This document shows positions 21,187 through 36,955 of a DNA stretch of 64,000 nucleotides, one piece after another. This DNA comes from Acidobacteriota bacterium (GTDB taxonomy: Bacteria; Acidobacteriota; Vicinamibacteria; Vicinamibacterales; UBA8438), in contig WTFV01000011.1 in NCBI GenBank assembly GCA_011523845.1, forward strand, positions 68,871 through 132,870, read 5' to 3'. Position 1 is the stretch's first letter, and every line of letters begins with the position of its first letter. Both the position numbers and the translations under genes were made by a program. The notes under the pieces were generated by a model, which made no database searches, was not told the DNA's origin, and worked only from the letters and a program-made list of their open reading frames with translations.

Positions 21187-21191
21187 ACGCG

Positions 21192-21386
21192 AGCCGTCGT
21201 CGCCATGGCCGGTCGAAGTCTAGCGCACGCGGCAGGAATCGCCGGCGACGGCGTGACGATTCACGCTGTTGGACAGTTATGCTTGACGTAACGTGGATAC
21301 GTGCCGCTACGGCGGGCACGGTCCGATGGCAGCGGGAACCGAAGCGTCGTGATCGTCGACTACCACCGGTGAGGAGCACAGGCCCA
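21192..21386. repeat. Copy 1 of duplicated res-5'-end / higB-tail junction segment
   Basis: 21192-21240 is near-identical to 35428-35476, including res codons 1-5 on the minus strand. GGGAACCGAAGCGTCGTGATC...CTACCACC...ACAGGCCCA recurs at 35501-35566 and partly at 36520-36557. Confidence 0.8.
21292..21372 (+). pseudogene. higB (RelE/ParE-family) 3' remnant
   Basis: A short frame opens after a TAA and ends ...SGNRSVVIVDYHR*, 13 nt before higA. VEIVDYH is the usual HigB C-terminus as I remember it. No N-terminal part is present. Confidence 0.45.
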
Positions 21387-22412: not shown

Positions 22413-22520
22413 GGCGTCCTCGGTCGGATCGAGCCCGACGGTCGGGCGTGTCCGGAGATCGATGTCGCGGCCGAGTCACGAGAGGGATCGAAATCGGGCT
22501 CGTGTCCATCTGTGCGCGCC

Positions 22521-23249: not shown

Positions 23250-23440
23250 CCCGCCTCCTCAGCGGATGCGCGCGATGAGGCGCGGCTCCCCCGTACTCGT
23301 CAATGAGCCAGACGGTTCGCCCCGACGGTTGCGTGCGTCCGGAATCTCCAGGACGCCTCCACACTGTACCGCGTCGGTGTCCATCTCGGCCTTCAGCGTC
23401 TTGAGCGCGCTGCAGGGATCGCGACCATCTTGCGCGTCGC
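23250..23440 (-). pseudogene. Possible DUF6883-like remnant, frameshifted
   Basis: Two minus-strand frames read ...GRTVWLIDEYGG and ...GEPRLIARIR*, directly upstream of the DUF4926 gene. The pairing of these families and the C-terminal pattern are recalled from memory only. Confidence 0.25.
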
Positions 23441-23606: not shown

Positions 23607-25719
23607 TCACTGCCCCGCCCGCAGGTCGTCGAGGAACTCCGAGCCGGGGTCCACGCCCGTCACCAGCAGCCGGTCGCGGGCGCGGGTGCAGGCGACGTAG
23701 AGCAAGTGCCGCTCGGTGCCGTAGACCTCCTCCAGATCGGCGTCATCGCCCACGCGTTCGATCCGGGTCTGCAGAGGAATGACCTCGTCGTCGCACGCTG
23801 CCACCGCGACCGCCCGGAACTCCAGCCCCTTGGCGAGGTGCATGGTGCCGACCGCGACCGACCCGGACACGCCGCCGGACCCGTCGTCGAGCTGCACGGC
23901 GCGCATGCCCGCGGCCCGTACAGCCGAAAGCGCCCGGTCGATCTGCTCCAGTGACCTGACGAACACGCCGATTGCCTGCGGCGCGCAGCCCTCGCGCTGT
24001 CGCGCGCGAAGCCAGTCCGCGATGGCCTTGGTCTCGTCCTCCGGCGAATCGAAGGTCCTGACCTCGGGTGCGGGTCCGTTGAACACCGAGACCGTTGCAC
24101 CTCGCTGCTCCGGGTTGCCGTCGACGTCGGCCAGCTCGGGCGGCAAGAGCCGGTCCGCCTGTCGCCGGATCTGATGCGACGTGCGGTAGTTGATGCGCAG
24201 CGTATGGGATCGCCCCCGCACGTCGACGCCGAGGGCCCGCCAGGAGAATGGTGTCTGGAAGATCCGCTGTCCAAGATCCCCGGCGAAGAACAGGCCGTTC
24301 GGCCGGCTCCCGCCCAGGCCCGCCAGAAACCGCAGTTCCGCGACGCCGATGTCCTGGGCTTCGTCGAGGACGCAGAAATCGAACGGTGGATGCGCAGCCC
24401 CCGCCATCGTCGCCGCCACCCGTCCGAACATGCCGGGCTCCGTCAACCTCCCCCGCTCGGCGAGCGCCGATTGGACCCGCGAGAAGATCGACCACAGCAA
24501 CTCCCGCTGCTTCTCGGCCAACCGGGTCTTGCGGCCGAGCCGCTGCACGTCGCGGTCGTCCTCCCAGCTCGCAAGTTGCCAGGCGTCGACCACCGTGCTC
24601 CATTCCGTCCGAAGGAAGTGCGCACCGAAACGATGACCTTCGACATCGGCAGCCGCCTGCCGGAGCAGCTCCCGGATGTCTTCGTCCGTCGCCAGCTTGA
24701 GGCGGCCGACGTTCGCCGTGTAGAGGCGACGCCCAATGGCGCTCATCGAAATGCACCTCGAGACGCTCGGCGATCTGCGGCTCGTTCCCGATGAGGCGTC
24801 TGAGACGCGTTCGCAGCGCGGTGGCCAGCGCATCGGAGAAGGTGGCCAGCAGCACGCGGCTCTCTGGATGTGCGCGCGCCAGATGCACCGCCCTGTGAAG
24901 CGCCACGATGGTCTTGCCGGTGCCGGCCGAGCCCGAGACACGCGCCGGACCGGTGTACTCGCGTTCGACGAGCTGCCGTTGGGCCGGGTGCAGGAAGACC
25001 GTCCACTTCTCCCAGGGGTAGTCCAGCGCCCGCTCCAGCGCCTCCACGTCCGCCATCACCCGGAAGCGGCGCTGCGCGTCCGGATGCGCGAACGGATCGG
25101 CGCCCGCCACGGCAGGCGCCGGGCGGTCAGGGGCACCGCCGGTCGCAAGCTGCAGCAGTGCCTCGGCGGCCTCGCCCGGCAGGTGGTCGGCGAGGTCGAG
25201 CAGCGTGTCCTCCGTCGCGGCCCGCACGTCGTTCAGCCACTCGACGGGCACGCCGTAGCCCAGCAGATCGTCGTCCGACGCGTGGGCGAAGAACGCCGTC
25301 CGCGACGCCGCCGGTCTGCCAGCCGCGGCCCCTTCGGTGGACGCGGGGACGTCCACCTCCACATACCGCGGCACCCGAATCTCGCGAACCGTCTCGCGGA
25401 TCTCGACGAGTTGCGCAGCGCCCGTCGTCGGATGCCGTTCCAGTCGCCGTCGTTCGGCCCACTGGTACGCCGCGTCGTGATGATCGACGTAGCAGAGCAG
25501 GAAGCTGGAAGCGGTCCGGTGGACGATCAGCCGGATGTCGCGACTGACCCGAACGGACCAGAAGTCCTTGTCCTTCGCCCGGTCGACCTGGTGCAGCTTC
25601 AGGCCCGGATGCGCCGGGTTCATCTGCAGGTCGAACGCCGCGGTCTTGACCGCCTTCTGCTCGTCGCCGGTCAGCTTCGCGAGGCTATCGGTGAAGGTGT
25701 CGGCGATTCGGAACTGCAT
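23607..25719 (-). pseudogene. UvrD/Rep-family helicase with N-terminal RelE/ParE-like domain, split by a +1 frameshift near 24749-24751
   Basis: The upstream frame starts at 25719 (MQFRIADTF...KLHQVDRAKDKDFWSVRVSRDIRLIVHR...VDHHDAAYQWA) and carries Walker A GSAGTGKT. The downstream frame (track ORF 23607..24941) carries VLDEAQD, INYRTS, TMHLAKGLEF and YVACTRARD. 2113 nt = 3n+1. Confidence 0.75.
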
Positions 25720-28223
25720 CAGGTCTCTATCTCGACCGGCACACCGATCTGGTTCGCGACTTCCGTCCGGAGATCCACGTCGACGTCCGGCGCCTTGATG
25801 CTGACGACGAGCGCGTATCGCGCGGTTTGGTCGTATCTCTCGAGGGCTTGGCGGGTCTTCCACCAACCTACCGCAGGGTAGACGGCGAGGCTCCCCCGGC
25901 TCGCGAGATCCGCCGCGCTGCCGCGCCAGATGTCCGCATGCAGTGAACCTCTGTGGCGAGTCTGCTTCCCAATCAACCACTCGGGATCGCTGCCCTGCGC
26001 GCGATGCGTTCCTTCTTCCTCGTCTCGCGCCGCTACGTTGATCCTGCTGCGAAACTCGTCGACCGACTCGAGGGGTCGCTTCACGTCGAAGCGGAGACCG
26101 TGGGACTCGTATCGGTACCGGGAACGGACCCCGCGCCGCGACGGGTTCGGCTCGATGAAGTAGGACAGCGTGACCCGCATCTCGACCTGCGTATCGCCCA
26201 GGCCCTCCAACTCATCGCGTGGCCAGGGCAGGTTGTAGAGATGCATGTCCCGAAGCGTGGGCGACTTCGATCCCTCGCGCTGGAATGGATGCAGACGCTC
26301 CTCGATCACCATCGTCAACGAGTTGTCGACACTCCAGAGCGCGCGATCGAGATCCGGCACGCCGAACCCGCAACGCTGGACCAGACGTCGGTAGTCCGTC
26401 TTCGTGGCCGCGCGGGTTGTGGGCAACGAGGCACGTCGCATGGCCTCGGTCCACTCCGCCGAATGCACGATGAGGGCACGGACAGTCTCCGGCCACAACG
26501 TCGGATAGACGACCATGATTCGAGCCGCGAGCCGCGCAGCCAGCGCCATCGCAGCACTCGTTGCGGTAGCAGTAGTGAAGATCCGTTCGTTGGGTCGATG
26601 ATGCGCTGTCAAGAGGCTGAGGCTGTCGGCCGTAACCGCGGAGAGCCCGTCCTTCGCCGCATTGCCGCCCTCAAGCACGATGTCCGGCTTCAGGCGCCAG
26701 TACTTCTCCCATGACAGTGAGGTCGTGCTGAACGGACTCAGACCGCCCCGCGGAGCAACGGGCGTGTAGTCGTCGGTGTCAGACTCCGTAATTCGCACCA
26801 GCTCCGTACAAGCACCCACCGCCAGCGCGTTCCATGCCTGCGCTGGATCGTGCACGCCATCGGTGTCGTTGGAATACGGGTAGTTGAACCACGCGTTGGG
26901 ATCCTGGATGTTCCCGGCCGACAGTACCAGCAGACGCGGGTGCTCACCAGCTCCGTCGACATCGGCCGCAAGTGCGTCCACGGCTGCCGACCACGCGGAC
27001 GGGCGGCCCCGGTCGCGGTCGTCGGGAGTCGTGACGGCCATGCCGAACACTCGAGGCCTCCTCGGAGCCGCGATTTCCGGACGGGCCACCGCCTCTCCCG
27101 TCACGTAACCATGGTGCCGCGAGTCTCCGTCGCCGCCGGGCCCGGGCAGCAGCTTCACCGATTCCAAACGGTGATCGAGCGCCACCGGGTCGGTGCCTTC
27201 AACAAGCGGCGTCAGATCGCCGGCGAGCGCCACGCCGGCCATCTGGGTCCCGTGGCCGTGCGCATCGTCGGGGCCCCAGCCGGGCTCGACGGTGTGCTGA
27301 TCGGCCGGCTCGAGTGCCGGGCTCAAGAACGGATGTCCCCGGTTGACGCCCGTGTCAAGGAGACAGACGCGCGGAACCTCATCCGTGTCGGCTGGGAATT
27401 GAGTCCGTGCAAGCAACTCGTCAAGCCATTCCTGCTGCTCTTCCGGCGGTAGGGAGCCAAAGAAATCAGCGGTCTCCTTGGCTCGCCGAAGCTCCGCGAT
27501 GCTGTTGAGCGTCAGCATCGAGTGCTCCATCTGTTCCAGTGAAGCCGACACCAACACCACCGTCCGCTCAGGAAACACCAACTCGCCAGGCGCAAGCCGC
27601 ATCCCCTGCGCTTCGGCTCGCTTCCGAAAGGACGCGATGATTGTCCGTCGATCCCTCCGGACCGGGAGCCAAACTTCCCACCAGAGTGCGCCTTCATCCC
27701 CCGTCGGGAACTCCGTCGCCGTGTCGGTCCAGAGGGCACGCAGGCTCGCCGCGCGAATCTCGCGAATCGCATCGACGAGTTTCCTGTTGTCGCGTACGCG
27801 TCCGATGCGATCCCGCCTCTCCTCCAGGTAGTCCCGGATGAGCCGCTCGAAGTGATCGAGCCTTCCGTCGGGCACGAAGACTGTCGCGAGCGTTCGATCA
27901 CGCTCCTGCCGGACGTTCAGCAGCTCCATTCCGGACCGCTCGCGCGCCAGGCTCTCGAAGGCCAACTCGATGTCAGGAAAGCTCTCGAACTCGATCCGCA
28001 ACCCCAACTCGTCCAGGCCGGCAGCCTGCTGAGCGTCTCGGGCGGCGTCAGCCTGCGGCCGCAACGCTTCGAACTGTCGCTGCAGTGCTCGGGCGTGGCG
28101 GGCGCGGTGGCGCTCAGGTACGACAGCGGAAGCTCCGAACTGCTGTGGCGACCTATACGGCTGCGTTTCTGCGAAGCCTTCGATGATGAAGTGTCGACTT
28201 CTTCGGTCCGTCCCGTTCGCCAT
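25719..28223 (-). CDS. ietS: S8 subtilase-family serine peptidase (IetS-like)
   Basis: 834 aa. Catalytic-type motifs CLLDTGV (Asp), HGHGTQMAG (His), LSAGN (Asn), ATATSAAMA (Ser). There is a long N-terminal non-protease region. The stop overlaps the helicase ATG (ATGA at 25717-25721). Confidence 0.8.
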   Translation of the reverse strand: MANGTDRRSRHFIIEGFAETQPYRSPQQFGASAVVPERHRARHARALQRQFEALRPQADAARDAQQAAGLDELGLRIEFESFPDIELAFESLARERSGMELLNVRQERDRTLATVFVPDGRLDHFERLIRDYLEERRDRIGRVRDNRKLVDAIREIRAASLRALWTDTATEFPTGDEGALWWEVWLPVRRDRRTIIASFRKRAEAQGMRLAPGELVFPERTVVLVSASLEQMEHSMLTLNSIAELRRAKETADFFGSLPPEEQQEWLDELLARTQFPADTDEVPRVCLLDTGVNRGHPFLSPALEPADQHTVEPGWGPDDAHGHGTQMAGVALAGDLTPLVEGTDPVALDHRLESVKLLPGPGGDGDSRHHGYVTGEAVARPEIAAPRRPRVFGMAVTTPDDRDRGRPSAWSAAVDALAADVDGAGEHPRLLVLSAGNIQDPNAWFNYPYSNDTDGVHDPAQAWNALAVGACTELVRITESDTDDYTPVAPRGGLSPFSTTSLSWEKYWRLKPDIVLEGGNAAKDGLSAVTADSLSLLTAHHRPNERIFTTATATSAAMALAARLAARIMVVYPTLWPETVRALIVHSAEWTEAMRRASLPTTRAATKTDYRRLVQRCGFGVPDLDRALWSVDNSLTMVIEERLHPFQREGSKSPTLRDMHLYNLPWPRDELEGLGDTQVEMRVTLSYFIEPNPSRRGVRSRYRYESHGLRFDVKRPLESVDEFRSRINVAARDEEEGTHRAQGSDPEWLIGKQTRHRGSLHADIWRGSAADLASRGSLAVYPAVGWWKTRQALERYDQTARYALVVSIKAPDVDVDLRTEVANQIGVPVEIET

Positions 28224-28237
28224 GCTGCGCCTTGCCG

Positions 28238-29227
28238 CTACACTCCTCTCGCAGCCAGCTTATCGGCGATGGTCTGGCGCTCCTTCAGCATCGTCCGGAT
28301 ATCCGCTTCGCGAACCAGAGACCGATCGTGAATCAACGCATCCTTCAGCACCTCGTCGGCGGCGCGAACGACCTCCGCGTAGCTCAGGCCCGCCGCGAGG
28401 TTGGCGAGGCTGCGCCAGCGGATCCGCTTCACGGCCTGTGAGGCGAGCCGTGCCCTCAGAACCTGCACAATCTGCGTCCTGTCGGGCAACTCGTAGTGCA
28501 GGATGTCGTCGAAGCGACGGAAGAGCGCGGGATCGAGAATGCCTGGATGGTTGGTCGCGGCAATGACGAGGCTGTGGGAGCGATCCTGCTCGATCATCTG
28601 GAGAAAACTGTTGAGGACACGTCGGATCTCGCCGACGTCGTTCGCGAGCCCACGCTGCGAGCCAATCGCGTCGAACTCGTCGAAGAAGTACACCCCCCGC
28701 GTGCGTCCCGTCGCCTCGAAGATCTGCCGCAGCTTGGCCGCCGTCTCTCCCATGTACTTGGTGATCAACCCATCGAGGCGGACCTGAAGAAGCGGAAGCC
28801 CCAGCTCTCCAGCCAGTACCGACGCGGTCAGCGTCTTGCCGGTTCCGGGTGGCCCCGTCAACAACAACTTGCGCCGCGGCGCGAGACCTCGCTCCAGGAT
28901 GCGCCCGGCGTGGCGCTGCTCCCGAATCACGCGCCGAATCTGGTCCCGGAGCTCCTCTCCCAGCACCATCTGTCCCAGTCGTGCGCCCGGATAGGACGCT
29001 TCCAGCAGATTCGCCAGCTCGCCGCGCGGCCGCCCGATCGGAACCGGCGCTCCGGCCCCCGTTTGGCTCTTGGCGCGATCGATCAGCGTGCGCAGCTCCT
29101 CGGCTAGTCTGCCATGCCCGAGCCTCGCCTCGTGGGCGGCCACCTGCATGGCGACGGAGAAGAAGCGGTCGTCATCGCCCTCCGCGTGCGACTTCAGCAG
29201 CGCCTTGAGCTGTTCACCGCTGGCCAT
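28238..29227 (-). CDS. ietA: AAA+ ATPase (IetA-like)
   Basis: Walker A GPPGTGKT, Walker B VYFFDEFD, sensor VIAATN, PALFRRFD. The ATG at 29227 has GGGAGA 7 nt upstream, so the track start at 29242 is less likely. 14-nt gap to the peptidase gene. Confidence 0.8.
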   Translation of the reverse strand: MASGEQLKALLKSHAEGDDDRFFSVAMQVAAHEARLGHGRLAEELRTLIDRAKSQTGAGAPVPIGRPRGELANLLEASYPGARLGQMVLGEELRDQIRRVIREQRHAGRILERGLAPRRKLLLTGPPGTGKTLTASVLAGELGLPLLQVRLDGLITKYMGETAAKLRQIFEATGRTRGVYFFDEFDAIGSQRGLANDVGEIRRVLNSFLQMIEQDRSHSLVIAATNHPGILDPALFRRFDDILHYELPDRTQIVQVLRARLASQAVKRIRWRSLANLAAGLSYAEVVRAADEVLKDALIHDRSLVREADIRTMLKERQTIADKLAARGV

Positions 29228-29258
29228 CAAGCATTCTCCCACGTGGGTTCGCGGCGAT

Positions 29259-32078
29259 TCACACCCGGAACACCTTCATCACCTCGTCGCCGAGGTGGTT
29301 GATGACCTTGACGGCGATGCGGCCCGACGCGGGGCGGTCGAACGGGCGCGAGAGGTCGCTGTGGAGCGACGCCCACGCGTCGGCGTCGATCTCGGCCTTC
29401 AGCGTCGTCTTCAGCGCCTTGTAGGGGTCGTTCGCGCCGAGGAAGTAGGCCTGCCGGACGAAGAAGCTCTCCTCGTTGTAGTCGGTGTCGACGAACCAGC
29501 AGGCGATGCCGTCGGCGCCGTCGCTGCGGACCTCGCCGGTGGTCGGGTGGAAGACGTCCACGCCGTTGATCCGCACCTGGATCCGCGTGCCGCCGTCGCC
29601 TTCGCCGCCAACCGGAAGGATGTCGATGTCCGGCTCGCCGAAGATGACGAACAGGTTGCCCTTGCCGGTGTTCTTCAGCTCGTCCGCCATGTGGAGGTCG
29701 GCGTTCATGCGCGCCTTCAGGACCGGGATGCGGCCGAGGCGGTTGAACTCCGACGCGTGCGCTTCGTAGTTGAACGCGCAGGCGATCAGGACGTCGAAGC
29801 CGGCGTCGCCCGCCTCGCGCGCGGCCGCCACCAGGTCCGGACGGGCCACGGTGCCGAACTCGGGGCCGACGAAGATCCCGGCGCGCTTGTCCGGGCCGGC
29901 ATCCCCATCGCCTTCGCGGTAGCGTCCCTCCGCGCAGATGTACTCGCCCGGCCAGGGCGTAACGGCGGCGAAGGCGATGCGATCCTCCTTGTGCACCTGC
30001 TGCACGCCGGCAGTCGCGAGCTGCTCCAGGATCATGGTCGCGAAGTCCTGTTGCGGCCCGTAGTCGGCCCTCGGCTCGGCGGCGCGGTCGATGAGCTCGT
30101 CGTCCTCGTCGACCGCCAGCACGCGATGCGGCGACAGGCTCTCCACCGTGAACGGTCCCGCCACCCGGACCTTCCGGTTGTCCTCGTAGGGCTTGTCGTA
30201 GAGGTACTCGTAGTCGGCCCGGGCCGCGATGGAAGCGTCGATCTCCTGTTGCCGGGCGATGCGCGCCTCCCACCACAGTCGATGCGTCTCGGCCGCCTCC
30301 GCCGGCCAGTCCTCGGACGCCTCGCGGGGAACCTGCCACTCCTCCCAGTCGGCATCGAGCCGGGCGTTCAGGTCGTCGCGCAACGGCTCCAGCGTCTCCT
30401 GCCAGCGCTCCCAGATGCCGTCGATCTCCGCGTTGTTGGCGATCGACTTGAGCGTGATGTGCGGGACACACTCGTAGACGAACCCCTGCCGGACGTCGCC
30501 GCGCGTCGGAGCGTCCGATGGCGCCTTTCGCGTGATCTCGGCCTCCTTGCGCTGCCCTTCCGGACTGTCAGCGAGAAGGTAGTACGGGTAGCGCGCGCCC
30601 ATGATGCGGGCACGGGCGAGGGCCAGCGCTACTCGGGAGGTGTCGATGGTGATCCAGCGGCGACCCCATTGCTCGGCGACGTATGCTGTGGTCCCGGACC
30701 CACAGGTCGGATCAAGTACCAGATCCCCGGGGTCGGTTGTCATGAGGATGCAGCGTTCAGCAACCGAACGGTTAGTCTGAACAACATACACCTTGGGGTC
30801 ATCAAATCCGGACGTAGTTGTGTCAGTCCACAAATTGGAGTAAGGAAAAATGCGGAAATCATCCAAGAACCTAACATAACGAAGTGTGTTTCCAATGAAG
30901 ATCATGCGCTTTGCGCAGGCGAGCCTCTGCAGTCCAGCCGCATCAGTCTTGAAAGTACCCTTATTGACGCCGAATGACTTTCCTTCGTAAGTGAACTCCC
31001 GAACATCCCCGCCCTGCGCCGGCCTCTGACTGGTAATGTTGTCGTGCGAGAAAATCCTGAGAGCCTTTGGATCTACGCCAGACCCTATCCATTCTGATGT
31101 GGTGCGCCTTTCACCACTTGCGTTCTCTCCGAACGAATACTGACTCGCACCAGCGGTACCAGGTTCTTTGAGCTGAAAAATCGGCCGGTACTTAGGAGCT
31201 TCAGACTTACTAAACCACAATAGAAGATCAAAAACACCTGATAGAGAGTCTGATGAGGTCGACGATGTCTTCTGGAACGCAATCTCGGCAATGAACCGCC
31301 CATCCCCGAACACCTCATCCATCAACGCCCGCACGCGGTGCACATTCTCATCCCCGATCTGCACGAAGATCGAACCGCTCTCCGCCAGCAGCTCGCGTGC
31401 CACAACCAACCGGTCCCGCAGATACGTCAGATACGAGTGAATCCCGTCGCGCCAGGTATCCCGGAACGCCCGGACCTGTTCCGGCTCCCGGCTGATGTGC
31501 TCCGCCTTGCCGTCCTTCACGTCGCGACTGGTCGTCGACCACTGGAAGTTCGAGTTGAACTTGATGCCGTAGGGCGGGTCCAGGTAGATACACTGCACCT
31601 TGCCGCGCAACCCTTCGCGCTCGGCGAGGGACGCCATCACCTGCAGGCTGTCGCCGAGGATCATCCGGTTCGACCAGTTGGCGTCGTGCTGGTAGAACTC
31701 GGTCCGGGCGTTATCGCTCGGCAGCCCGTTGAAGTCGGCGAACAGATCCGGCTGGGCCTCCGCGCCGTCACCGCCCTGCCCGGCCCGTCCGTTCCTGCGC
31801 TGCCGGCGGAGGTCGTCGACGAGCACCTTCGGGTGGACCTTCTCCTGGATGAACAGAGGCGGCGCCTGCACGACGAGGTCGGACCAGTCCTGCGCGTCCT
31901 TGCCGCGCCAGACGAGCTGTGGATCAAGGTCGCGGTTGCGGCGCTCATAGGCGACCTGGACGGGGCTCTGCTCGGCGCGTTCCATCACGGACCGGAATTC
32001 GGCCGTGGGGATGTTCTTGCGCGACGCCTCCTGGTGCCTGAACGTCTCGACGGCCTTCCTGGATCGGTTCTTCGGCAT
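29259..32078 (-). CDS. mod: Type III-like DNA methyltransferase (Mod), beta-class N6A/N4C
   Basis: Start MPKNRSRK at 32078. Motif IV IYLDPPYG lies upstream of motif I DPTCGSGTT (beta-class order), with a low-GC presumed target-recognition region between them. Long C-terminal domain. Confidence 0.85.
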   Translation of the reverse strand: MPKNRSRKAVETFRHQEASRKNIPTAEFRSVMERAEQSPVQVAYERRNRDLDPQLVWRGKDAQDWSDLVVQAPPLFIQEKVHPKVLVDDLRRQRRNGRAGQGGDGAEAQPDLFADFNGLPSDNARTEFYQHDANWSNRMILGDSLQVMASLAEREGLRGKVQCIYLDPPYGIKFNSNFQWSTTSRDVKDGKAEHISREPEQVRAFRDTWRDGIHSYLTYLRDRLVVARELLAESGSIFVQIGDENVHRVRALMDEVFGDGRFIAEIAFQKTSSTSSDSLSGVFDLLLWFSKSEAPKYRPIFQLKEPGTAGASQYSFGENASGERRTTSEWIGSGVDPKALRIFSHDNITSQRPAQGGDVREFTYEGKSFGVNKGTFKTDAAGLQRLACAKRMIFIGNTLRYVRFLDDFRIFPYSNLWTDTTTSGFDDPKVYVVQTNRSVAERCILMTTDPGDLVLDPTCGSGTTAYVAEQWGRRWITIDTSRVALALARARIMGARYPYYLLADSPEGQRKEAEITRKAPSDAPTRGDVRQGFVYECVPHITLKSIANNAEIDGIWERWQETLEPLRDDLNARLDADWEEWQVPREASEDWPAEAAETHRLWWEARIARQQEIDASIAARADYEYLYDKPYEDNRKVRVAGPFTVESLSPHRVLAVDEDDELIDRAAEPRADYGPQQDFATMILEQLATAGVQQVHKEDRIAFAAVTPWPGEYICAEGRYREGDGDAGPDKRAGIFVGPEFGTVARPDLVAAAREAGDAGFDVLIACAFNYEAHASEFNRLGRIPVLKARMNADLHMADELKNTGKGNLFVIFGEPDIDILPVGGEGDGGTRIQVRINGVDVFHPTTGEVRSDGADGIACWFVDTDYNEESFFVRQAYFLGANDPYKALKTTLKAEIDADAWASLHSDLSRPFDRPASGRIAVKVINHLGDEVMKVFRV

Positions 32079-32098
32079 GGGACACACCCGCGGTCGGC

Positions 32099-32314
32099 TC
32101 ACCCGGCCTTGTACGACGCCACTGGCAAGGCTCGGGTCTCGAGCGTAGCCAGATCGAGCTTCCTCGAAGCGTGGTCTATATCGAAACCGACCGGATTGCC
32201 GTCGGCGTCGAGGTCGACGTTGAGTCCGGTCACAACCTCGCGGGCTTCCACGCCTGGGCCGGCTCTCAGTTCCACGTACAGGCTGTCGGTGTCCGGGTAG
32301 TAGTGGAGCTTCAT
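32099..32314 (-). CDS. DUF2283-like small protein
   Basis: MKLHYYPDTDSLYVELRAGPG...VGFDIDHAS. An alternative upstream ATG at 32389 overlaps the res stop (ATGA) and would add 25 aa. Confidence 0.6.
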   Translation of the reverse strand: MKLHYYPDTDSLYVELRAGPGVEAREVVTGLNVDLDADGNPVGFDIDHASRKLDLATLETRALPVASYKAG

Positions 32315-32385
32315 GACGAGTCCCTTCCAAAACCCGCAGTCGAAGAAGGCATCGTGGATTGTCTCACCGTCGGCCAGCGTCACGG

Positions 32386-35300
32386 TCATCGTGTCACCCG
32401 CTCGACCAACGCCTGGAACTGCGCCCTCAGCGCGCCCTCGAAGTCCTCCTCCATCGTGTAGACGTCGGTCAGCTCGGCGAAGGCCCAACGGCCGTAGGCG
32501 CCGAGGTTGTTGACGCCGGGGACCCAGTAGGTGTCCATCGTCGTCTTCTTGTCCTTGGCGTCCTCGCCCCGGTAGCCCTTCACCTCGACCACGAGGCGGA
32601 GCAGGTCCTCGTCGCCGCGGCCGTCGTCGACGAGCACGACGAAATCGGGGAGGTAGCGGCGCGTCCGGGAACCGTAGCGGTAGGGCACCTCGAGGCCGAG
32701 GGCGTGGTTCTTGACGTAGGCGCGCACCCGCGGATGCGATTCGACCACGAGGCAGAACTGGGCCTCCCAGTCGCTGTCGCACACGACCCAGTTGACGTGG
32801 CAGCGGCCGGGGTCGGTCTCCCAGCGGAGCTTCTTCGAGGTCGTGAAGCGCACGTGGAGCGTCGAGCCGACGGGGTTGTAGGGGTCCAGCATGGCCTTGA
32901 TCGGACGCTCGCCCAGCAGATTGGAGACGATCCCGGCCGTGATACGTTCGCACGCCATGTCGGCCAGCTCCTGGTACATGAGCTGGGCCGGATACGTCCC
33001 GCCCTTGCAGTCGAGATGACCGTCGAGCCACTGGCGCGTGATCCGCTTGAGCTGGCCGAACAGGTGCAGCTTCGGCTCCTCGCCGGGATCCCGCCACCTG
33101 GTCTCCAGCAGCCGCTTCGTCAGATGAAAGAGCAGGGTCGACTTCCGCAGGTCGCGGGTGTGAATCAGGTTCAGATCGACCCCTTCACCGATGATGCCCT
33201 CGACGCGCGTGATGGACGGCCCGACCAGCGCGGGGGTGAGCTCCAGCGTCGAGTCGTCGTTGAAGCGGGCGGTCAGGCGCTCTTCGGGGAGCTCGACGCG
33301 GTAGCCCGCCACCCGCGGGAAACGGATCTCGCAGGCGTCGCGTTCCGGCGTGATCGCCCGCACCAGCACCGTCTCCCGCGGCGGCGGCGGCTTGACCGGC
33401 ACCGGCTTGGCGGTGAAGTCGAACGGGATGCCGAGCACGTCGGCGTACTCGACGTCGAAGAGGCCGTCCTCGTTCGGGTCGTAGGACTGGCGGCGCAGCG
33501 CGCGCCCGACGACCTGCTCGCAGAGGAGCTGCGTCCCGAAGGCGCGGACGCCCAGGATGTGGGTGACGGTGCGGGCGTCCCAGCCCTCGGTCAGCATCGA
33601 GACGGAGACGACGCAGCGGACCGATCCGCCGAGGGTGTCCGGCTTGCCGACCGTGTTCATCACCTCGCGGAGCAGATCCTGGTCCGACAGGTGCTCGGCC
33701 TGCTTGCGGTCACCCGTCCGGGCGACGATCTCCCGCCGGAAGCGCTCGATCTCGTCGCCGGCCGCGGCGCGGAAGTTCTTGTCGAGCGCCTCGCCCGAGT
33801 CGAGCTGCTCGCTGTCGATGAGCAGCGTGCGGGGACGGGGGTGCGGGTTGCCGTGCTCGTCGAAGTTGCGAAACAGCTTCAGGCGTCCGTTGACCAGCGT
33901 CGTGGCGCCGTACTCGTTCTCGCGGAAGAAGCCGGAGACGAAGTCGTAGACGAGCTTCGAGGTCGAGGTGTTGTTGCAGACGATGATGAAGCAGGGCGGC
34001 ACGGCGATGCCGGCCTTCTCCCACAGCTCGAACGTCTGCTCGTAGTGGCCGTAGAGCGCCTGGAGCGCGGTCTGCAACTCCACCGGCAGGCTGAGCGGGT
34101 CGAGTCCGCCCGCCTTGCCGCGGCCCCGCTTCGGCATCTTCGGGCGGATGTGCTCCCACAGGTTCCGGAACTTCGGCATCTCGCCGCCGGGGATGTTGTC
34201 GGCCACCGGCACGCGCGGCAGCTTCACGATGCCGCACTCGATGGCGTCCATCAGCGAGAAGTCGCTCGCCGTCCAGGGGAACAGCGTCCCCTCCGCGTAG
34301 CCGGAGCCGCGCAGGAAGAAGGGCGTGGCCGAGAGATCGATCACGCGCTGCAGGCCAAGCTTCCGCTGCACCGCCTCGAGCCCGGAGATCCAGACCCGCG
34401 CCGCCTCGCGGTTCCGCTCGGCCTCCTTGCGGTCGTCGCCCTTGAGCGGGCCTTCTTCGTCCTCCCCGGCCGGCTTCTCGCGGTAGCAGTGGTGCGCCTC
34501 GTCGTTCAGGGCCAGGATGCGCTTCATGCCCATCAGGCCCGGCATGACGCGCTGCAGCATCTGCCCTTCGGTCTCCTTCGTCCGCAGCTCGGGCCCGGGC
34601 CCCTGCAGCAGGGCGCGACCGCCCTTCGACAGTTCCAGCGTCTCGCGCCGCAGGAACGCGTGGTAGTTGGTGACGACGATCTTCGCCCGCTCCAGGTCGC
34701 GGAGCATGTCGTTCGGCACCAGCTCGCGGCTCGCGTAGTAGCTGTCCGGATCGTTGGGCTGGAGCACCCGCAACCGGTCGCGGATCGTCACGCCGGGGGT
34801 CACCACCAGGAAGCCGCGCGTGAACCGCCGGCTGCCCGGCCGGCGCACCGCGTTGATCGTCTGCCAGGCGATGATCATCGCCATGACGGTGGTCTTGCCG
34901 GCGCCGGTGGCGAGCTTCAGCGCCAGCCGCGCGAGGCCGGGATTGGCCCCTTCGCTGGCGGCGTCGATCTGATCGAGAAACCGGCGGCCCTCCTTGCCGA
35001 GGCTCGGCGCCACCTCGGTCAGCCAGATCGCGGTCTCCACCGCCTCGACCTGGCAGAAGAACGGCCGGATGTCGCCGAACCGATGGCTGCGCCAGTGGGT
35101 CAGGAGCCGTGCGGTCTCCGGCGTCACGCTCCAGGCGTTCGGATCCGGCAGCTCGCGCCAGCGATCCACATGGTGGCGGACGCCGCCGATGAACGCCGTC
35201 AGGTCGTACTGCTGCGCCTCGGTCCCGAGCGCCTGCGCGGCCGCGTCGAAGAGGATCTCCTCCTGCTGGATGCCCTTCTGCTTCTTCGGCTTCGGGATCG

Positions 35301-35442
35301 GCGTGATGAAGGCGACCTTGCGGCGCTCGGAGAGGATCCGGTTCGTCGGCTGGCCGCTCGGGTCGAGCTCCCAGTGGCGGGACGGGTACTCGTACGGCGA
35401 GTTCAGGATCGGTTGCTCGAAGAATGCAGCCGTCGTCGCCAT
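32386..35442 (-). CDS. res: Type III restriction enzyme Res subunit (SF2 helicase-nuclease)
   Basis: 1018 aa. MATTAAFFEQPILNSPYEYP. Motif I KLATGAGKT, motif II ALNDEAHHC, SVSMLTEGWD, QVVGRALRR. The C-terminal region has endonuclease-like EVKG. Confidence 0.85.
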   Translation of the reverse strand: MATTAAFFEQPILNSPYEYPSRHWELDPSGQPTNRILSERRKVAFITPIPKPKKQKGIQQEEILFDAAAQALGTEAQQYDLTAFIGGVRHHVDRWRELPDPNAWSVTPETARLLTHWRSHRFGDIRPFFCQVEAVETAIWLTEVAPSLGKEGRRFLDQIDAASEGANPGLARLALKLATGAGKTTVMAMIIAWQTINAVRRPGSRRFTRGFLVVTPGVTIRDRLRVLQPNDPDSYYASRELVPNDMLRDLERAKIVVTNYHAFLRRETLELSKGGRALLQGPGPELRTKETEGQMLQRVMPGLMGMKRILALNDEAHHCYREKPAGEDEEGPLKGDDRKEAERNREAARVWISGLEAVQRKLGLQRVIDLSATPFFLRGSGYAEGTLFPWTASDFSLMDAIECGIVKLPRVPVADNIPGGEMPKFRNLWEHIRPKMPKRGRGKAGGLDPLSLPVELQTALQALYGHYEQTFELWEKAGIAVPPCFIIVCNNTSTSKLVYDFVSGFFRENEYGATTLVNGRLKLFRNFDEHGNPHPRPRTLLIDSEQLDSGEALDKNFRAAAGDEIERFRREIVARTGDRKQAEHLSDQDLLREVMNTVGKPDTLGGSVRCVVSVSMLTEGWDARTVTHILGVRAFGTQLLCEQVVGRALRRQSYDPNEDGLFDVEYADVLGIPFDFTAKPVPVKPPPPRETVLVRAITPERDACEIRFPRVAGYRVELPEERLTARFNDDSTLELTPALVGPSITRVEGIIGEGVDLNLIHTRDLRKSTLLFHLTKRLLETRWRDPGEEPKLHLFGQLKRITRQWLDGHLDCKGGTYPAQLMYQELADMACERITAGIVSNLLGERPIKAMLDPYNPVGSTLHVRFTTSKKLRWETDPGRCHVNWVVCDSDWEAQFCLVVESHPRVRAYVKNHALGLEVPYRYGSRTRRYLPDFVVLVDDGRGDEDLLRLVVEVKGYRGEDAKDKKTTMDTYWVPGVNNLGAYGRWAFAELTDVYTMEEDFEGALRAQFQALVERVTR

Positions 35443-35566
35443 GGCCGGTCGAAGTCTAGCGCACGCGCCAGGAATCCCGTGCGACGGTGGACACGGTGGG
35501 GCTTGCCGCGGGAACCGAAGCGTCGTGATCCGTCGGAGCTACCACCAATGAAGAGGTACAGGCCCA
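35428..35566. repeat. Copy 2 of res-5'-end / higB-tail junction segment
   Basis: Aligns with 21192-21386 but has an internal deletion. Ends at ACAGGCCCA, exactly where higA would start. Confidence 0.8.
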
Positions 35567-35570
35567 CCCT

Positions 35571-35706
35571 GGGATCGGCATCATCGCCAATGCGTTCGAT
35601 CCGGATCTGCAGTGGAATGACCTCATCGTAGCAGGCGGCCACCGCGACCGCCGGAACTCCAGCCCCTTCGCGAGGTGCATGGTGCCGACCGCGACCGATC
35701 CGGACC
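35571..35706 (-). pseudogene. Fragment of a paralogous UvrD-like helicase (C-terminal region)
   Basis: About 85 % identical to 23733-23868 in direct orientation. Encodes ...VAVGTMHLAKGLEF... and ...CYDEVIPLQIRIERIGDDAD. Confidence 0.75.
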
Positions 35707-35868
35707 CGCTCGAAGCGCTGAGGGACCGGCGCCGGGGGCAGTGGAGCATCCGATCAACGACCAGTGGCGGATCTGCGTATGGCCCGAGGGGGCTCGGGCT
35801 CATTGAGCCAAGCGTCAAGGTATATAATGCCCGATATCCGTCCGCTGGCCTTTGGGACAGCGGGGCGC

Positions 35869-36033: not shown

Positions 36034-36542
36034 GGCCCAAGATGGAGAACAAGGAGTACGTTCTTCGAGGATTCATCAGGCTCCGTCCAAGTGGGCGCTT
36101 TGTCGGAGTCTGTCTGAGGCCCAACCTCGTTGTCGAAGCCGACTCGAGAGAGGAAGCGCTCGAAAAGTTGAAGGACCTTATCGGTGCGTATCGTGCAGAT
36201 GCGGTCAGGGATGGCGAGCTCGATCACTTCATGAAGCAACGTGCGCCGCTTGCGTTCTATCTGGAATGGTTCAGCCTGCGGATCGCGCAATTCGGCCACG
36301 AGAACTGGCGTAACATTCGGGACGTCGTTCGCAGGCTCCTGCACGAGCAGCCGAACAGTTCGGGACCCGTCCCGGACGCGGTCGGGCGGCCGTTCCGGAC
36401 GTTTACCGAAAGTCGAAACGCATCTCGCAGCATGCTTGATGCCCTTCTGTTTTTTCGGCTTCGGGATCGGCGTGATGAACGCGACTGGCCCGCGGCGAGC
36501 TCCGGCCCGGCCGGGGTGGAGATCGGCGACCACCACCGATGA
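36030..36542 (+). CDS. Hypothetical protein with HicB/UPF0150-like N-terminus; 3' end runs into gene fragments
   Basis: EYVLRGFIRLRPSGRFVGVCLRPNLVVEADSREEALEKLKDLIGAYRADAV is HicB-like by pattern only. After about 36435 the frame is antisense to a res fragment, so the native C-terminus is unknown. Confidence 0.35.
   Translation: MRPKMENKEYVLRGFIRLRPSGRFVGVCLRPNLVVEADSREEALEKLKDLIGAYRADAVRDGELDHFMKQRAPLAFYLEWFSLRIAQFGHENWRNIRDVVRRLLHEQPNSSGPVPDAVGRPFRTFTESRNASRSMLDALLFFRLRDRRDERDWPAASSGPAGVEIGDHHR
36436..36485 (-). pseudogene. Fragment of a paralogous res gene (codons about 45-60)
   Basis: Near-identical to 35268-35317. Encodes VAFITPIPKPKKQKGI. Confidence 0.7.
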
Positions 36543-36556
36543 GGAGGCACAGGCCC

Positions 36557-36705
36557 ATGCGCGAACCTATCCACCCCGGCGAGACGCTGCGCGAGGACCT
36601 CGACGCGCTCGGCATGAGCGCGGCGGAGCTTGCGCGGCGCATCGAGATACCTGTGAACCGCATTTCCCGGATTCTCAACGGCCAGCGAGCGGTTACCGGC
36701 GACCG
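36557..36705 (+). pseudogene. Truncated higA paralogue (first about 50 codons), preceded by a higB tail ...VEIGDHHR*
   Basis: MREPIHPGETLREDLDALGMSAAELARRIEIPVNRISRILNGQRAVTGD. Similarity then switches abruptly to mod. Confidence 0.75.
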
Positions 36706-36712
36706 AACTCCG

Positions 36713-36955
36713 GGCCAAAGAAGATCCCGGCGCACTTCCTCCGGGGCCGGCATCCCCCTCGCCTCCGCGGTAGCGTCCCTCCGCGCAGGTGTACTCCCCC
36801 GGCCACTGCGTGACGCCCACGAAGGCAATGCGACTCTCCTTGTGCGCCTGCTGCACGCCGGCGGTCGCCGGCTGCTCCACGACCACCGCCGCGAAGTACT
36901 GCTGCGGCCCGTAGTTGGCCCGCTCGCGGCGCGCTCGATGAGGACGCCTCGCCAT
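36713..36955 (-). pseudogene. Fragment of a paralogous mod gene
   Basis: About 80 % identical to 29862-30110 in direct orientation. Encodes ANYGPQQYFAAVVVEQPATAGVQQAHKESRIAFVGVTQWPGEYTCAEGRY, compared with ADYGPQQDFATMILEQLATAGVQQVHKEDRIAFAAVTPWPGEYICAEGRY in mod. Confidence 0.75.

What the first reader, a model, noticed from the sequence alone, without database searches (positions are those of the whole stretch)
23607..35442. Single minus-strand chain res - DUF2283 - mod - AAA ATPase - S8 subtilase - RelE-like/UvrD helicase: type III R-M physically fused to an IetAS-like module
Six genes sit on one strand with minimal spacing:
- The res stop overlaps a possible DUF2283 start (ATGA at 32386-32389).
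- 20 nt from DUF2283 to mod.
- 31 nt from mod to the ATPase.
- 14 nt from the ATPase to the subtilase.
- The subtilase stop overlaps the helicase ATG (ATGA at 25717-25721).

AAA ATPase plus S8 subtilase is the domain content of the IetAS anti-phage system (Gao et al. 2020). Here it is embedded between a type III-like Mod/Res pair and a helicase. This suggests a co-transcribed composite in which restriction, a protease/ATPase effector and a helicase are expressed together. I do not know of this six-gene arrangement being described.
Basis: partly seen in the sequence, partly recalled or inferred. Interest (0 to 1): 0.75.

Follow-up and report, generated by a model that had tools for sequence, protein, structure and literature searches.

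The report
IetAS defence cassette embedded in restriction operon
The six-gene chain is a three-gene restriction-modification-plus-helicase operon with an IetAS anti-phage module sitting in a slot between two of its genes; in other bacteria the same slot holds many different defence systems, so this is a new example of the known habit of nesting defence systems inside one another.

Summary

- **Profile matches.** The ATPase and peptidase pass PADLOC IetA and IetS profiles (4e-71, 8e-38), with catalytic motifs intact. Res is a BPTD_3080-family restriction endonuclease. Mod is a beta-class type III methylase.
- **Conservation.** Res-Mod-IetA-IetS-helicase recurs with the same junctions in 16 complete loci and 9 partial contigs, from nine phyla.
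- **The helicase belongs to the R-M.** Plasmids and 53 of 62 informative Mod-anchored metagenome loci show Res-Mod-helicase without IetAS. Mod and helicase often overlap directly.
- **Cargo slots.** The Mod|helicase gap holds at least 61 unrelated cargo clusters, including Gabija, DRT UG5, Ppl, GmrSD, PDC-S06 and AbiL-like genes. The Res|Mod gap is a second slot, holding DUF2283 here.
- **Helicase N-terminus.** It has a RelE/YoeB fold.
- **Mobility.** The same IetAS clade also occurs alone and inside a type I R-M operon.

Embedding (Payne 2024) and RM III-IetAS co-localisation (Wu 2024) are published; I found no description of this host operon. I rate it a new variant of a known kind.

The parts
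32386..35442 (-). Res: restriction subunit of the host operon (SF2 helicase plus C-terminal PD-(D/E)xK nuclease), 1018 aa
   Evidence: NCBIfam NF046055 'BPTD_3080 family restriction endonuclease', 1325 bits against a cut-off of 800. Pfam ResIII, and RE_endonuc just below cut-off. Motifs GAGKT, DEAH, SAT, QVVGRALR and PD...EVK are present.
32099..32389 (-). DUF2283 small gene in cargo slot 1 (Res|Mod). The likely true start is the ATG at 32314 (71 aa).
   Evidence: Pfam PF10049, E = 6.6e-13, covering residues 27-75 of the 96-aa reading. AAGGGA Shine-Dalgarno before 32314. Apart from the window's own contig, seen only in L008 (same position) and L017 (upstream of Res).
29259..32078 (-). Mod: beta-class N6/N4 DNA methyltransferase with a central variable target-recognition region, 939 aa
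   Evidence: PADLOC MTase_III PDLC03632, 1384 bits. Pfam N6_N4_Mtase, 1e-34. DPPY at 167 precedes VLDPTCGSG at 454. Residues 261-440 are only ~33% identical among homologues, against 81-89% for the flanking segments.
28238..29227 (-). IetA-like AAA+ ATPase, first gene of the slot-2 cargo
   Evidence: PADLOC IetA, 4e-71. Pfam AAA, 7e-31. Walker A GPPGTGKT and Walker B VYFFDE are present. NCBIfam IteA equivalog cut-off not reached: 198 against 510.
25719..28223 (-). IetS-like S8 subtilase with Y4kK_N N-terminal domain, second gene of the slot-2 cargo
   Evidence: PADLOC IetS, 8e-38. Pfam Peptidase_S8, 2e-55. PF27160 Y4kK_N. Triad D290/H324/S556 plus N438 is present. NCBIfam IteS equivalog cut-off not reached: 63 against 900.
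23607..25719 (-). RelE-fold/UvrD-like SF1 helicase, third gene of the host operon, frameshifted here by a 1-nt insertion at ~24751
   Evidence: Pfam UvrD-helicase (N-terminal part) and UvrD_C (C-terminal part) fall in two frames. Alignment to the intact L008 gene: 2113 versus 2112 nt, with a single gap. Homologues abut Mod directly in plasmids and metagenomes.
25441..25719 (-). N-terminal RelE/YoeB-fold domain of the helicase (residues ~1-93)
   Evidence: [quoted passage not shown] Foldseek against PDB: YoeB 2a6r E = 7e-5, RelE 3bpq, YafQ; TM to target 0.70-0.77. Pfam HigB-like_toxin E = 0.014, below threshold. JGI names fragments 'RelE'.
35573..35709 (-). Debris: fragment of a second helicase gene (aa ~616-661), immediately upstream of the Res leader
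   Evidence: 91% identical to 23735-23872.
36433..36942 (-). Debris of another host-operon copy: Res N-terminal fragment (36433-36485), HigA fragment (36563-36703, + strand) and Mod fragment aa 661-741 (36703-36942)
   Evidence: Self-blastn: 92%, 88.5% and 85% identity to 35264-35316, 21351-21532 and 29854-30095. HigA fragment.
23370..23421 (-). Debris: stub of a Mod 3' end (aa 883-901) downstream of the helicase
   Evidence: 82% identical to 29376-29430. Similar Mod-3' and helicase-5' stubs flank cargo in L006, L052, L105, L106, L119, L137, L148 and L156.
21192..21386 (-). Second copy of the Res leader and start codon region, now in front of a GNAT acetyltransferase ORF
   Evidence: 93% and 79% identical to 35428-35487 and 35481-35566.

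Best explanation
The chain is a three-gene, type III-like restriction-modification operon: Res of the BPTD_3080 family, a large beta-class Mod, and a UvrD-like helicase with a RelE-fold N-terminal domain. It has two positions where foreign genes are nested.

- Slot 1 (between Res and Mod) holds a DUF2283 gene here.
- Slot 2 (between Mod and the helicase) holds an IetA-IetS cassette.

The cargo has no room for its own promoter (31, 14 and -1 nt junctions). It is therefore most likely transcribed with the host operon from the promoter upstream of Res. The highly conserved Mod 3' end and helicase 5' end next to slot 2 probably serve as homology arms, through which whole cassettes are swapped between related host operons.

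Functionally I read this as layered defence inherited and expressed as one unit. The R-M cuts unmodified incoming DNA. IetAS is a toxin-antitoxin-like protease/ATPase module that acts on its own elsewhere, and here it would give a second, probably abortive, line of defence.

Shown: gene identities, the host operon without IetAS, the diversity of cargo, the conserved junctions, and the stubs.

Inferred: co-transcription, recombination through the arms, and functional independence of R-M and IetAS.

In this particular genome the helicase is frameshifted and the flanks hold debris of earlier copies, so the operon may be partly decayed.
For: **Gene identities:**

**Same five-gene order and spacing elsewhere.**
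- 16 complete loci and 9 partial contigs, from Acidobacteriota, Pseudomonadota, Verrucomicrobiota, Myxococcota, Desulfobacterota, Chloroflexota, Spirochaetota, Gemmatimonadota and Latescibacterota.
- Mod->IetA is 21-31 nt in most of these loci, and IetS/helicase overlap.

**Host operon without IetAS.**
- The P. avellanae plasmid has Res-Mod-helicase with overlapping genes.
- The R. leguminosarum and Gemmobacter plasmids have small unknown genes in both slots.
- In 80 Mod-anchored metagenome loci, 53 have the helicase downstream, none has the close IetAS, and one has a distant AAA+S8 pair.

**Slot sizes.**
- Slot 2: 18 loci <=22 nt, 12 loci 0.3-0.8 kb, 36 loci 1.2-8.9 kb.
- Slot 1: about 50 loci <=65 nt and about 30 loci 0.2-3.3 kb.

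**Cargo.**
- 61 clusters in slot 2, nearly all on the same strand.
- Slot 2 includes Gabija, DRT UG5, Ppl, PDC-S06, GmrSD, AbiL-like, Fic and ABC-3C genes.
- Slot 1 holds AlbA_2/HATPase_c_4, ORF6N, YhcG, Bro-N, HepT, NYN and RT genes.

**Signs of cassette exchange.**
- Stubs of the Mod 3' end or helicase 5' end lie beside cargo.
- The Mod C-terminal 69 aa are ~86% identical across all host operons.

**IetAS as an independent unit.**
- IetA and IetS co-vary (rho 0.85), but IetAS against host-operon genes gives only rho 0.3-0.6.
- The same IetAS clade sits between hsdS and hsdM of a type I system in Marinobacter, and alone in 44 of 80 loci.
- Literature: IetAS defends alone and behaves as a protease-toxin/ATPase-antitoxin pair (PMC13069673). 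Embedded genes share the orientation of their host system in 96.7% of cases (10.1101/2024.01.29.577857).
Against: - No transcript data. The promoter and terminator scan found nothing on either side and is uninformative in a 68% GC acidobacterial-type sequence.
- The host-operon phylogeny is nearly star-like: all pairs are ~65-70% identical. The scatter of IetAS-bearing operons in the trees (9-12 Fitch steps for 13-16 tips against 12-15 in shuffles) therefore cannot separate many insertions from one old insertion followed by many replacements. No extra similarity of the arms among IetAS-bearing operons was seen.
- The uniform Mod->IetA and IetS/helicase junctions across phyla could also mean selection for a specific coupling.
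- The helicase frameshift and the flanking debris mean the unit may not work as described in this organism.
Confidence: 0.65

Rival explanations
1. Obligate functional coupling. The embedded IetAS is a guardian of the R-M, like PrrC in the EcoprrI type I locus. It would be held inactive by Res/Mod or by the RelE-fold helicase, and released when a phage inhibits restriction. Alternatively, the helicase acts as an essential IetH-like third component of IetAS.
For: - The junctions are nearly identical in nine phyla.
- The same IetAS clade is also nested inside a type I R-M operon, between hsdS and hsdM, where PrrC-type genes sit.
- A second, distant AAA+S8 pair follows Mod of the same host operon in L125.
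- RM III and IetAS co-localise non-randomly in E. coli (10.1101/2022.08.21.504612).
- A helicase (SNF2 IetH) is essential and antitoxin-like in the IetHAS variant (PMC13069673).
- PrrC is the published precedent (PMC12707154).
Against: - The helicase occurs with Res-Mod in 53 of 62 informative loci that lack IetAS.
- Four loci have Res-Mod-IetAS with no helicase, or only a stub of it.
- 44 of 80 IetAS loci have no host-operon gene nearby.
- The same slot holds autonomous systems such as Gabija and DRT.
- IetAS cloned alone protects E. coli (cited in PMC13069673).
- The helicase here is SF1/UvrD-like, not SNF2, and lies downstream rather than upstream.
Confidence: 0.2
2. A decaying locus. The chain is a relic of repeated recombination in a defence island and no longer works as a unit. 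The R-M/helicase part is inactivated, and only IetAS (and perhaps Mod) is functional.
For: - A 1-nt insertion splits the helicase, and it is seen in two assemblies.
- Fragments of further Res, Mod, helicase and HigA genes lie on both flanks at 82-93% identity.
- GC3 differs along the chain: Res 0.94 against Mod 0.80 and IetS 0.77.
Against: - Res, Mod, IetA and IetS are full-length with all catalytic motifs.
- IetS is 100% identical in contigs from five samples.
- The near-identical six-gene locus in L008 has an intact helicase.
- A single indel could be an assembly error, since the two assemblies come from one study.
Confidence: 0.12
3. Chance adjacency of independent systems in a defence island, each with its own promoter.
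For: - The window is a defence island. A complete Gabija lies 1.6 kb upstream, and toxin-antitoxin-like genes lie downstream.
- IetAS and the R-M each occur without the other.
Against: - The gaps of 31 nt, 14 nt and -1 nt leave no room for promoters.
- The identical arrangement recurs in at least 25 loci of nine phyla.
- The cargo lies between two genes that overlap each other when the slot is empty.
Confidence: 0.03

Closest known systems
Embedding of defence systems within multi-gene defence systems ('guilt by embedding': Hma, BREX, DISARM, type I R-M; Payne et al., bioRxiv 10.1101/2024.01.29.577857)
   Same: - Extra genes are nested between the genes of a host defence operon, in the same orientation.
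- The cargo is highly diverse among homologous hosts.
- The cargo is rich in ABC/OLD-type ATPases, GmrSD, Gabija and toxin domains.
- PDC-S06, a PADLOC phage-defence-candidate family, is one of the cargoes here.
   Different: - The host here is a type III-like Res-Mod plus RelE-fold UvrD-like helicase operon, which that study does not list among its hosts.
- Res, Mod and the helicase gave no Hma match among the PADLOC hits returned.
- PADLOC's REase_III models barely see this Res (E = 1.6e-4), so such loci would be missed by that pipeline.
IetAS (Gao et al. 2020; originally the pTi-SAKURA ietA/ietS plasmid-stability pair) and IetHAS (PMC13069673)
   Same: - An adjacent AAA+ ATPase and S8 subtilase, with the ATPase first.
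- Strong PADLOC IetA and IetS matches and intact catalytic motifs.
- A helicase gene next to it, as in IetHAS.
   Different: - Only 49-58% identical to plasmid IetS, and below NCBIfam's IteA/IteS equivalog cut-offs.
- Nested in an R-M operon without its own promoter space.
- The neighbouring helicase is SF1/UvrD-like with a RelE domain and belongs to the R-M, not SNF2 IetH.
RM III-IetAS co-localisation in E. coli (Wu et al., bioRxiv 10.1101/2022.08.21.504612)
   Same: A type III R-M and IetAS are found next to each other more often than chance.
   Different: - That report is a statistical listing without architecture.
- This host operon has no detectable DNA relative in 5,426 E. coli genomes.
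- The E. coli IetAS loci I retrieved were stand-alone.
PrrC/RloC in type I R-M loci (EcoprrI; review PMC12707154)
   Same: A latent toxic effector gene is embedded between the genes of an R-M operon. The same IetAS clade sits between hsdS and hsdM in L045.
   Different: - PrrC is an ABC-ATPase anticodon nuclease with demonstrated masking by EcoprrI.
- No interaction or trigger is known for IetAS.
Classical type III R-M (EcoP1I, EcoP15I)
   Same: - A beta-class Mod with a central target-recognition region.
- A Res with an SF2 helicase and a C-terminal PD-(D/E)xK nuclease.
   Different: - Gene order is res-mod rather than mod-res.
- Mod is ~300 aa longer, with a conserved C-terminal extension.
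- There is a third conserved gene (the helicase) and two cargo slots.

Membership tests
IetAS | AAA+ ATPase matching IetA profiles, with Walker A and Walker B motifs | tested here: met
   PADLOC IetA PDLC02196 E = 4e-71, nearly full length. GPPGTGKT and VYFFDE present.
IetAS | S8 subtilase matching IetS profiles, with a catalytic Asp/His/Ser triad | tested here: met
   PADLOC IetS PDLC02198 E = 8e-38, covering residues 58-810. Pfam S8 2e-55. D290, H324 and S556 present.
IetAS | The two genes adjacent on one strand, ATPase first | tested here: met
   14-nt gap. Median gap 14 nt in 84 loci.
IetAS | Equivalog-level similarity to the experimentally tested pair (NCBIfam IteA and IteS cut-offs) | tested here: not met
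   198 bits against a 510 cut-off, and 63 bits against a 900 cut-off. This is a divergent clade of the family.
IetAS | Protection against phage that depends on the protease | not testable with these tools
   Needs cloning and phage assays.
Type III restriction-modification | Mod is a beta-class N6/N4 methyltransferase (motif IV before motif I) with the target-recognition region between the motifs | tested here: met
   DPPY at 167 and VLDPTCGSG at 454. Variable block 261-440. PADLOC MTase_III 1384 bits.
Type III restriction-modification | Res has an SF2 helicase motor plus a C-terminal PD-(D/E)xK nuclease | tested here: met
   Pfam ResIII. GAGKT, DEAH, SAT and QVVGRALR motifs, and PD...EVK at 932-955. 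NCBIfam NF046055 1325 bits. Pfam RE_endonuc is just under its cut-off (21.2 against 23.4).
Type III restriction-modification | Recognised by curated type III Res models (PADLOC REase_III) | tested here: inconclusive
   Only partial hits, E = 1.6e-4 to 0.019, over ~45 residues.
Type III restriction-modification | Operon order mod then res; two-gene system | tested here: not met
   The order is res-mod, with a conserved third gene.
Type III restriction-modification | Hemimethylation of an asymmetric site; cleavage requires two inversely oriented sites and ATP | not testable with these tools
   Needs methylome and enzymology.
Embedded defence cargo (Payne et al. 2024) | Genes nested between genes of a multi-gene defence system, in the same orientation, and variable among homologous hosts | tested here: met
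   Slot 2 is empty in 18 loci and filled in 48, with 61 cargo clusters. Strand and annotation.
Hma (helicase-methylase-ATPase) system | Proteins matching the PADLOC Hma models | tested here: not met
   No Hma model appears among the hits for Res (all 4 shown), or among the 25 best hits for Mod and for the helicase.
IetHAS | SNF2-family helicase IetH encoded with IetAS | tested here: not met
   The helicase is UvrD/SF1 (Pfam UvrD-helicase and UvrD_C) and accompanies Res-Mod in loci without IetAS.
RelE/ParE (BECR) fold | [quoted passage not shown] | tested here: met
   Model residues 1-90 have pLDDT 66-84. Foldseek: YoeB 2a6r E = 7e-5, TM to target 0.75, followed by many RelE and YafQ chains.
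RelE/ParE (BECR) fold | Sequence membership of a Pfam RelE-superfamily model; RNase activity | tested here: inconclusive
   HigB-like_toxin E = 0.014, 16 bits against a 27 cut-off. No PDB sequence hit. Activity was not tested.

The most novel reading that the evidence does not exclude
The Res-Mod-(RelE-fold) helicase operon is a widespread, recombinase-free cassette platform. Its conserved Mod 3' end and helicase 5' end act as fixed homology arms, through which whole defence systems (IetAS, Gabija, DRT, GmrSD, Ppl and several proteins of unknown function) are exchanged across phyla and expressed from the R-M promoter. On this reading, the embedded IetAS works as a PrrC-like guardian that fires when the R-M or its RelE-helicase is disabled by phage. 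This would give the first clue to the unknown trigger of IetAS.
Probability: 0.2. Interest if true: 0.8.

Novelty: new variant of a known kind. Interest (0 to 1): 0.55.

Why it matters
- **A new host for defence discovery.** Embedded defence genes have proved a productive way to discover new immune systems. This adds a common host, a type III-like R-M with a RelE-fold helicase, that current detectors barely recognise. Its slots already contain several large proteins with no family match: 1049 aa in L106, 859 aa in L116, a recurrent 204-aa gene and a three-gene cassette. These are ready candidates.
- **A testable lead on IetAS.** The IetAS mechanism and trigger are unknown. Its repeated nesting inside both type III-like and type I R-M operons gives a concrete hypothesis: activation on loss of restriction.
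- **An annotation correction.** The "3'-5' exonuclease" gene next to these methylases is part of the R-M operon.

Tried and rejected
1. **Helicase as an IetAS partner.** Rejected, because it accompanies Res-Mod without IetAS.
2. **Host operon = Hma.** Rejected, because no Hma model appeared among the PADLOC hits returned.
3. **Actinobacterial origin**, guessed from 70% GC. The nearest relatives are Vicinamibacterales, phylum Acidobacteriota.
4. **Looking for the published E. coli RM III-IetAS arrangement.** Plasmid and chromosomal E. coli IetAS loci found through a Klebsiella-type IetAS query were all stand-alone. The host operon has no DNA match in E. coli. I could not inspect the pairs behind the published statistic.
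5. **Phylogenetic test for single versus multiple insertion of IetAS.** Inconclusive, because the host-operon tree is star-like and the host genes themselves correlate poorly.
6. **Test for the arms travelling with the cargo.** No signal.
7. **Promoter and terminator scan.** Nothing usable.
8. **Profile search of the helicase N-domain against PDB sequences.** No hit. Only the fold comparison worked.
9. **First structure job with locus-derived sequences.** It was redone with database homologues.
10. **Frameshift hot spot in the helicase.** This was suggested by the truncated database hits. The breakpoints are scattered and the list is probably biased towards short proteins.


Full report
**1. 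Observation**

The window is about 70% GC, with a lower-GC island from roughly 13 to 43 kb. Six reading frames lie head to tail on the minus strand between 35442 and 23607.
- The Res stop overlaps an ATG as ATGA at 32386-32389.
- 20 nt separate the DUF2283 stop from the Mod ATG.
- 31 nt separate the Mod stop from the IetA ATG, which is preceded by GGGAG.
- 14 nt separate the IetA stop from the IetS ATG.
- The IetS TGA shares one base with the helicase ATG (TGATG at 25717-25721).

Two corrections are needed:
- The DUF2283 Pfam domain begins at residue 27 of the long reading. The internal ATG at 32314 has the better ribosome-binding site.
- The helicase is split. Against the 94%-identical intact gene in locus L008, the window has a single extra base at about 24751 (2113 versus 2112 nt). 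Only the first ~323 codons are read in frame. A second assembly from the same study carries the same shift.

**2. Gene identities**

- **Res** scores 1325 bits on NCBIfam NF046055, "BPTD_3080 family restriction endonuclease" (cut-off 800). It has SF2 motifs and a C-terminal PD...EVK nuclease motif.
- **Mod** matches PADLOC MTase_III PDLC03632 at 1384 bits. DPPY precedes the AdoMet motif, with a hypervariable block between them. This is the type III Mod layout.
- **The ATPase and the subtilase** match PADLOC IetA (4e-71) and IetS (8e-38) over nearly their full lengths. They keep Walker A/B and the Asp-His-Ser triad. They fall below NCBIfam's strict equivalog cut-offs, so they are a divergent IetAS clade.
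- **The helicase** is UvrD-like. [quoted passage not shown] The best PDB matches are YoeB, RelE and YafQ (E = 7e-5, TM to target 0.70-0.77). Pfam HigB-like_toxin is a sub-threshold hit.

**3. Is the order conserved?**

The window's IetS is identical in contigs from five samples. The nearest genomes are Vicinamibacterales.

A scan of one genome per species with an IetS alignment returned 80 loci. I mapped the window's proteins onto them:
- 16 loci carry Res-Mod-IetA-IetS-helicase in order. The script counted 15. I added L052, whose Res is cut by the contig end.
- 9 short contigs carry consistent parts of the chain.
- 4 loci carry Res-Mod-IetAS with the helicase absent or reduced to a stub.

These loci come from nine phyla. 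The Mod->IetA gap is 21-31 nt in most of them, and IetS and the helicase overlap. The helicase is in one frame in the other loci. DUF2283 was detected only in the window's own contig and two Vicinamibacterales relatives: L008 has it at the same position between Res and Mod, and L017 has it upstream of Res.

The remaining 44 loci, mostly with IetS below 62% identity, have IetAS with no Res, Mod or helicase nearby. Plasmid IetAS is also stand-alone.

**4. The helicase belongs to the R-M**

Searching annotated plasmids with the helicase and with Mod found the same replicons:
- In Pseudomonas avellanae p1NCPPB4222 the three genes Res, Mod and "3'-5' exonuclease" overlap one another with nothing between them.
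- In Rhizobium leguminosarum and Gemmobacter plasmids, small unknown genes sit between Res and Mod and between Mod and the helicase.

A Mod-anchored scan of metagenomes gave 80 further loci:
- 53 have the helicase downstream of Mod.
- 9 have at least 6 kb of downstream sequence without it.
- 21 are too short to tell. This script count also includes the three plasmid loci L086-L088.
- None has the close IetAS. One (L125) has a distant AAA+S8 pair.

Over all loci where the distance could be measured:
- The Mod|helicase distance is <=22 nt in 18 loci, 0.3-0.8 kb in 12 and 1.2-8.9 kb in 36.
- The Res|Mod distance is <=65 nt in about 50 loci and 0.2-3.3 kb in about 30.

The conserved unit is therefore Res-Mod-helicase, with two variable slots.

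**5. What fills the slots**

Slot 2 ORFs fall into 61 sequence clusters, almost all on the operon strand. Named cargo:
- Gabija GajA+GajB (L162)
- DRT UG5 reverse transcriptase-nitrilase (L119, L133)
- Ppl (L124, L142)
- PDC-S06 (L103, L127)
- GmrSD type IV enzymes (L121, L147, L157)
- AbiL-like/PDC-M38A with DUF3226 (L118)
- OLD/ABC ATPases
- Fic with a D12 methylase (L126)
- ABC-3C components (L159, L052)
- a STAND NTPase (L106)

Several large proteins have no match at all.

Slot 1 holds genes typical of R-M-linked ORFs: AlbA_2/HATPase_c_4 (7 loci), ORF6N, YhcG nuclease, Bro-N, HepT, NYN, a reverse transcriptase and, here, DUF2283.

Some loci carry IetAS plus a second cargo in the same slot (L036, L049, L052).

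**6. Mobility of the cassette**

- Short duplicate stubs of the Mod 3' end or the helicase 5' end lie beside cargo in many loci (L006, L052, L105, L106, L119, L137, L148, L156). They even lie beside IetAS that has left the host operon (L016, L029, L048, L027).
- The last 69 residues of Mod are ~86% identical across all host operons, against 33% in the recognition block. This makes good homology arms.
- IetA and IetS distances correlate tightly (rho 0.85), but IetAS against host-operon genes only weakly (0.3-0.6). IetAS-bearing operons are scattered in the Res, Mod and helicase trees.
- The trees are nearly star-like and the host-operon genes correlate poorly with each other. This test cannot count insertion events.
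- In Marinobacter sp. EhC06 the same IetAS clade lies between hsdS and hsdM of a type I system.

**7. Local state of this window**

Besides the helicase frameshift, both flanks hold direct-repeat debris at 82-93% identity:
- a helicase 3' fragment just upstream of the Res leader (35573-35709)
- Res, HigA and Mod fragments (36433-36942)
- a Mod 3' stub after the helicase (23370-23421)
- a second copy of the Res leader, now in front of a GNAT gene (21192-21386)

A complete Gabija lies at 37072-40637 on the other strand. This is a defence island that has been through repeated recombination between related host-operon copies.

**8. Mechanism**

Shown: the architecture, the identities and the conserved junctions.

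Inferred from established knowledge:
- Type III enzymes methylate one strand of an asymmetric site and cut unmodified DNA after ATP-dependent communication between sites.
- IetAS behaves as a protease-toxin/ATPase-antitoxin pair and protects on its own. Its trigger is unknown (PMC13069673).

I therefore favour layered, co-inherited and probably co-transcribed defence, with IetAS as exchangeable cargo (confidence 0.65).

The main rival is a PrrC-like guardian role or dependence on the helicase (0.2). The uniform junctions, the type I embedding and the published RM III-IetAS co-localisation keep this rival alive. The many IetAS-free host operons and operon-free IetAS loci argue against it.

A decayed, partly dead locus (0.12) is compatible with either reading. 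Chance adjacency is excluded by the junctions.

**9. Comparison with the literature**

- Nesting of defence genes inside Hma, BREX, DISARM and type I R-M operons is published (10.1101/2024.01.29.577857). That paper does not list type III hosts, and no Hma model appeared among the PADLOC hits returned for the proteins here.
- Wu et al. list RM III-IetAS among co-localising pairs in E. coli. The host operon here has no E. coli relative at DNA level, and the E. coli IetAS loci I could retrieve were stand-alone.
- A helicase-containing IetAS variant exists, but with an SNF2 helicase.
- The literature searches I ran for "BPTD_3080" and for this gene combination found nothing. A review of RelE-superfamily multidomain proteins does not mention helicase fusions.

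I therefore rate this as a new variant of a known kind, not a new category.

**10. Caveats**

- There are no expression or activity data.
- Cargo ORFs were called by a simple longest-ORF rule.
- Each scan kept only its best 80 loci, so frequencies are samples and not a census.
- The frameshift rests on two assemblies from one study.

Noticed in passing
window 37072-40637 (+): A complete Gabija system (GajA 734 bits, GajB 613 bits in PADLOC) lies in a 56-60% GC patch. It is divergent from the chain and separated from it by debris of Res, Mod and helicase genes. Gabija is itself a slot-2 cargo of the same host operon in L162.
   Followed up: partly
window 21386-21724 (+) and 36563-36703; L007 5210-5503 and 14210-14536: A HigA-type HTH antitoxin gene, plus an 87%-identical fragment of it. 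In L007 the same gene sits divergently just upstream of both Res copies. Because the operon's helicase carries a HigB/RelE-fold domain, HigA could be its neutraliser or the operon's regulator. DUF2283 in slot 1 could play a similar role; from memory, and not checked here, it is a partner of DUF4258 RelE-superfamily toxins.
   Followed up: partly
window 20707-21386 (-): A copy of the Res leader and first codons (93% identical to 35428-35487) now precedes a GNAT acetyltransferase ORF (20707-21186), out of frame with the Res ATG. It looks like promoter capture after recombination.
   Followed up: no
window 21765-23249 (-): Two DUF4926 genes (a 90%-identical 230-nt repeat at 21795-22024 and 23034-23263) flank small ORFs and an NTP_transf_2 (MNT-type) gene at 22122-22412. 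This is probably toxin-antitoxin-like cargo downstream of the helicase.
   Followed up: no
L045 4502-14195 (Marinobacter sp. EhC06): The same IetAS clade (61% IetS identity) is embedded in a type I R-M operon in the order hsdR-hsdS-IetA-IetS-hsdM.
   Followed up: partly
L125 8764-12254: A distant AAA ATPase + S8 peptidase pair (33% and 24% identity to the window's IetA and IetS) directly follows Mod of the same host operon. This is a second, independent IetAS-like lineage in this position.
   Followed up: no
L106 12688-15837; L116 5095-7674; L126 13744-15183; L108 12790-13404 (and 3 more loci); L152/L163/L164 slot 2: Slot-2 cargo proteins with no Pfam or PADLOC match: 1049 aa, 859 aa, 479 aa, a recurrent 204-aa protein and a recurrent three-gene cassette. 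They are candidate new defence genes by 'guilt by embedding'.
   Followed up: no
helicase homologues P0121-P0240: All 120 best database matches to helicase residues 1-322 are truncated (313-562 aa instead of ~704). 35 have non-homologous tails at scattered positions. This is either a bias of the word index towards short proteins or frequent decay of this gene. In the fetched loci most helicases are intact.
   Followed up: partly
window 23607-35442: Third-position GC differs along the chain: Res 0.94, Mod 0.80, IetA 0.81, IetS 0.77, helicase 0.84. Identity to L008 is also mosaic: Res 97%, Mod 82%, IetS 83%, helicase N-terminal part 98%. Both suggest recent recombination within the operon.
   Followed up: no
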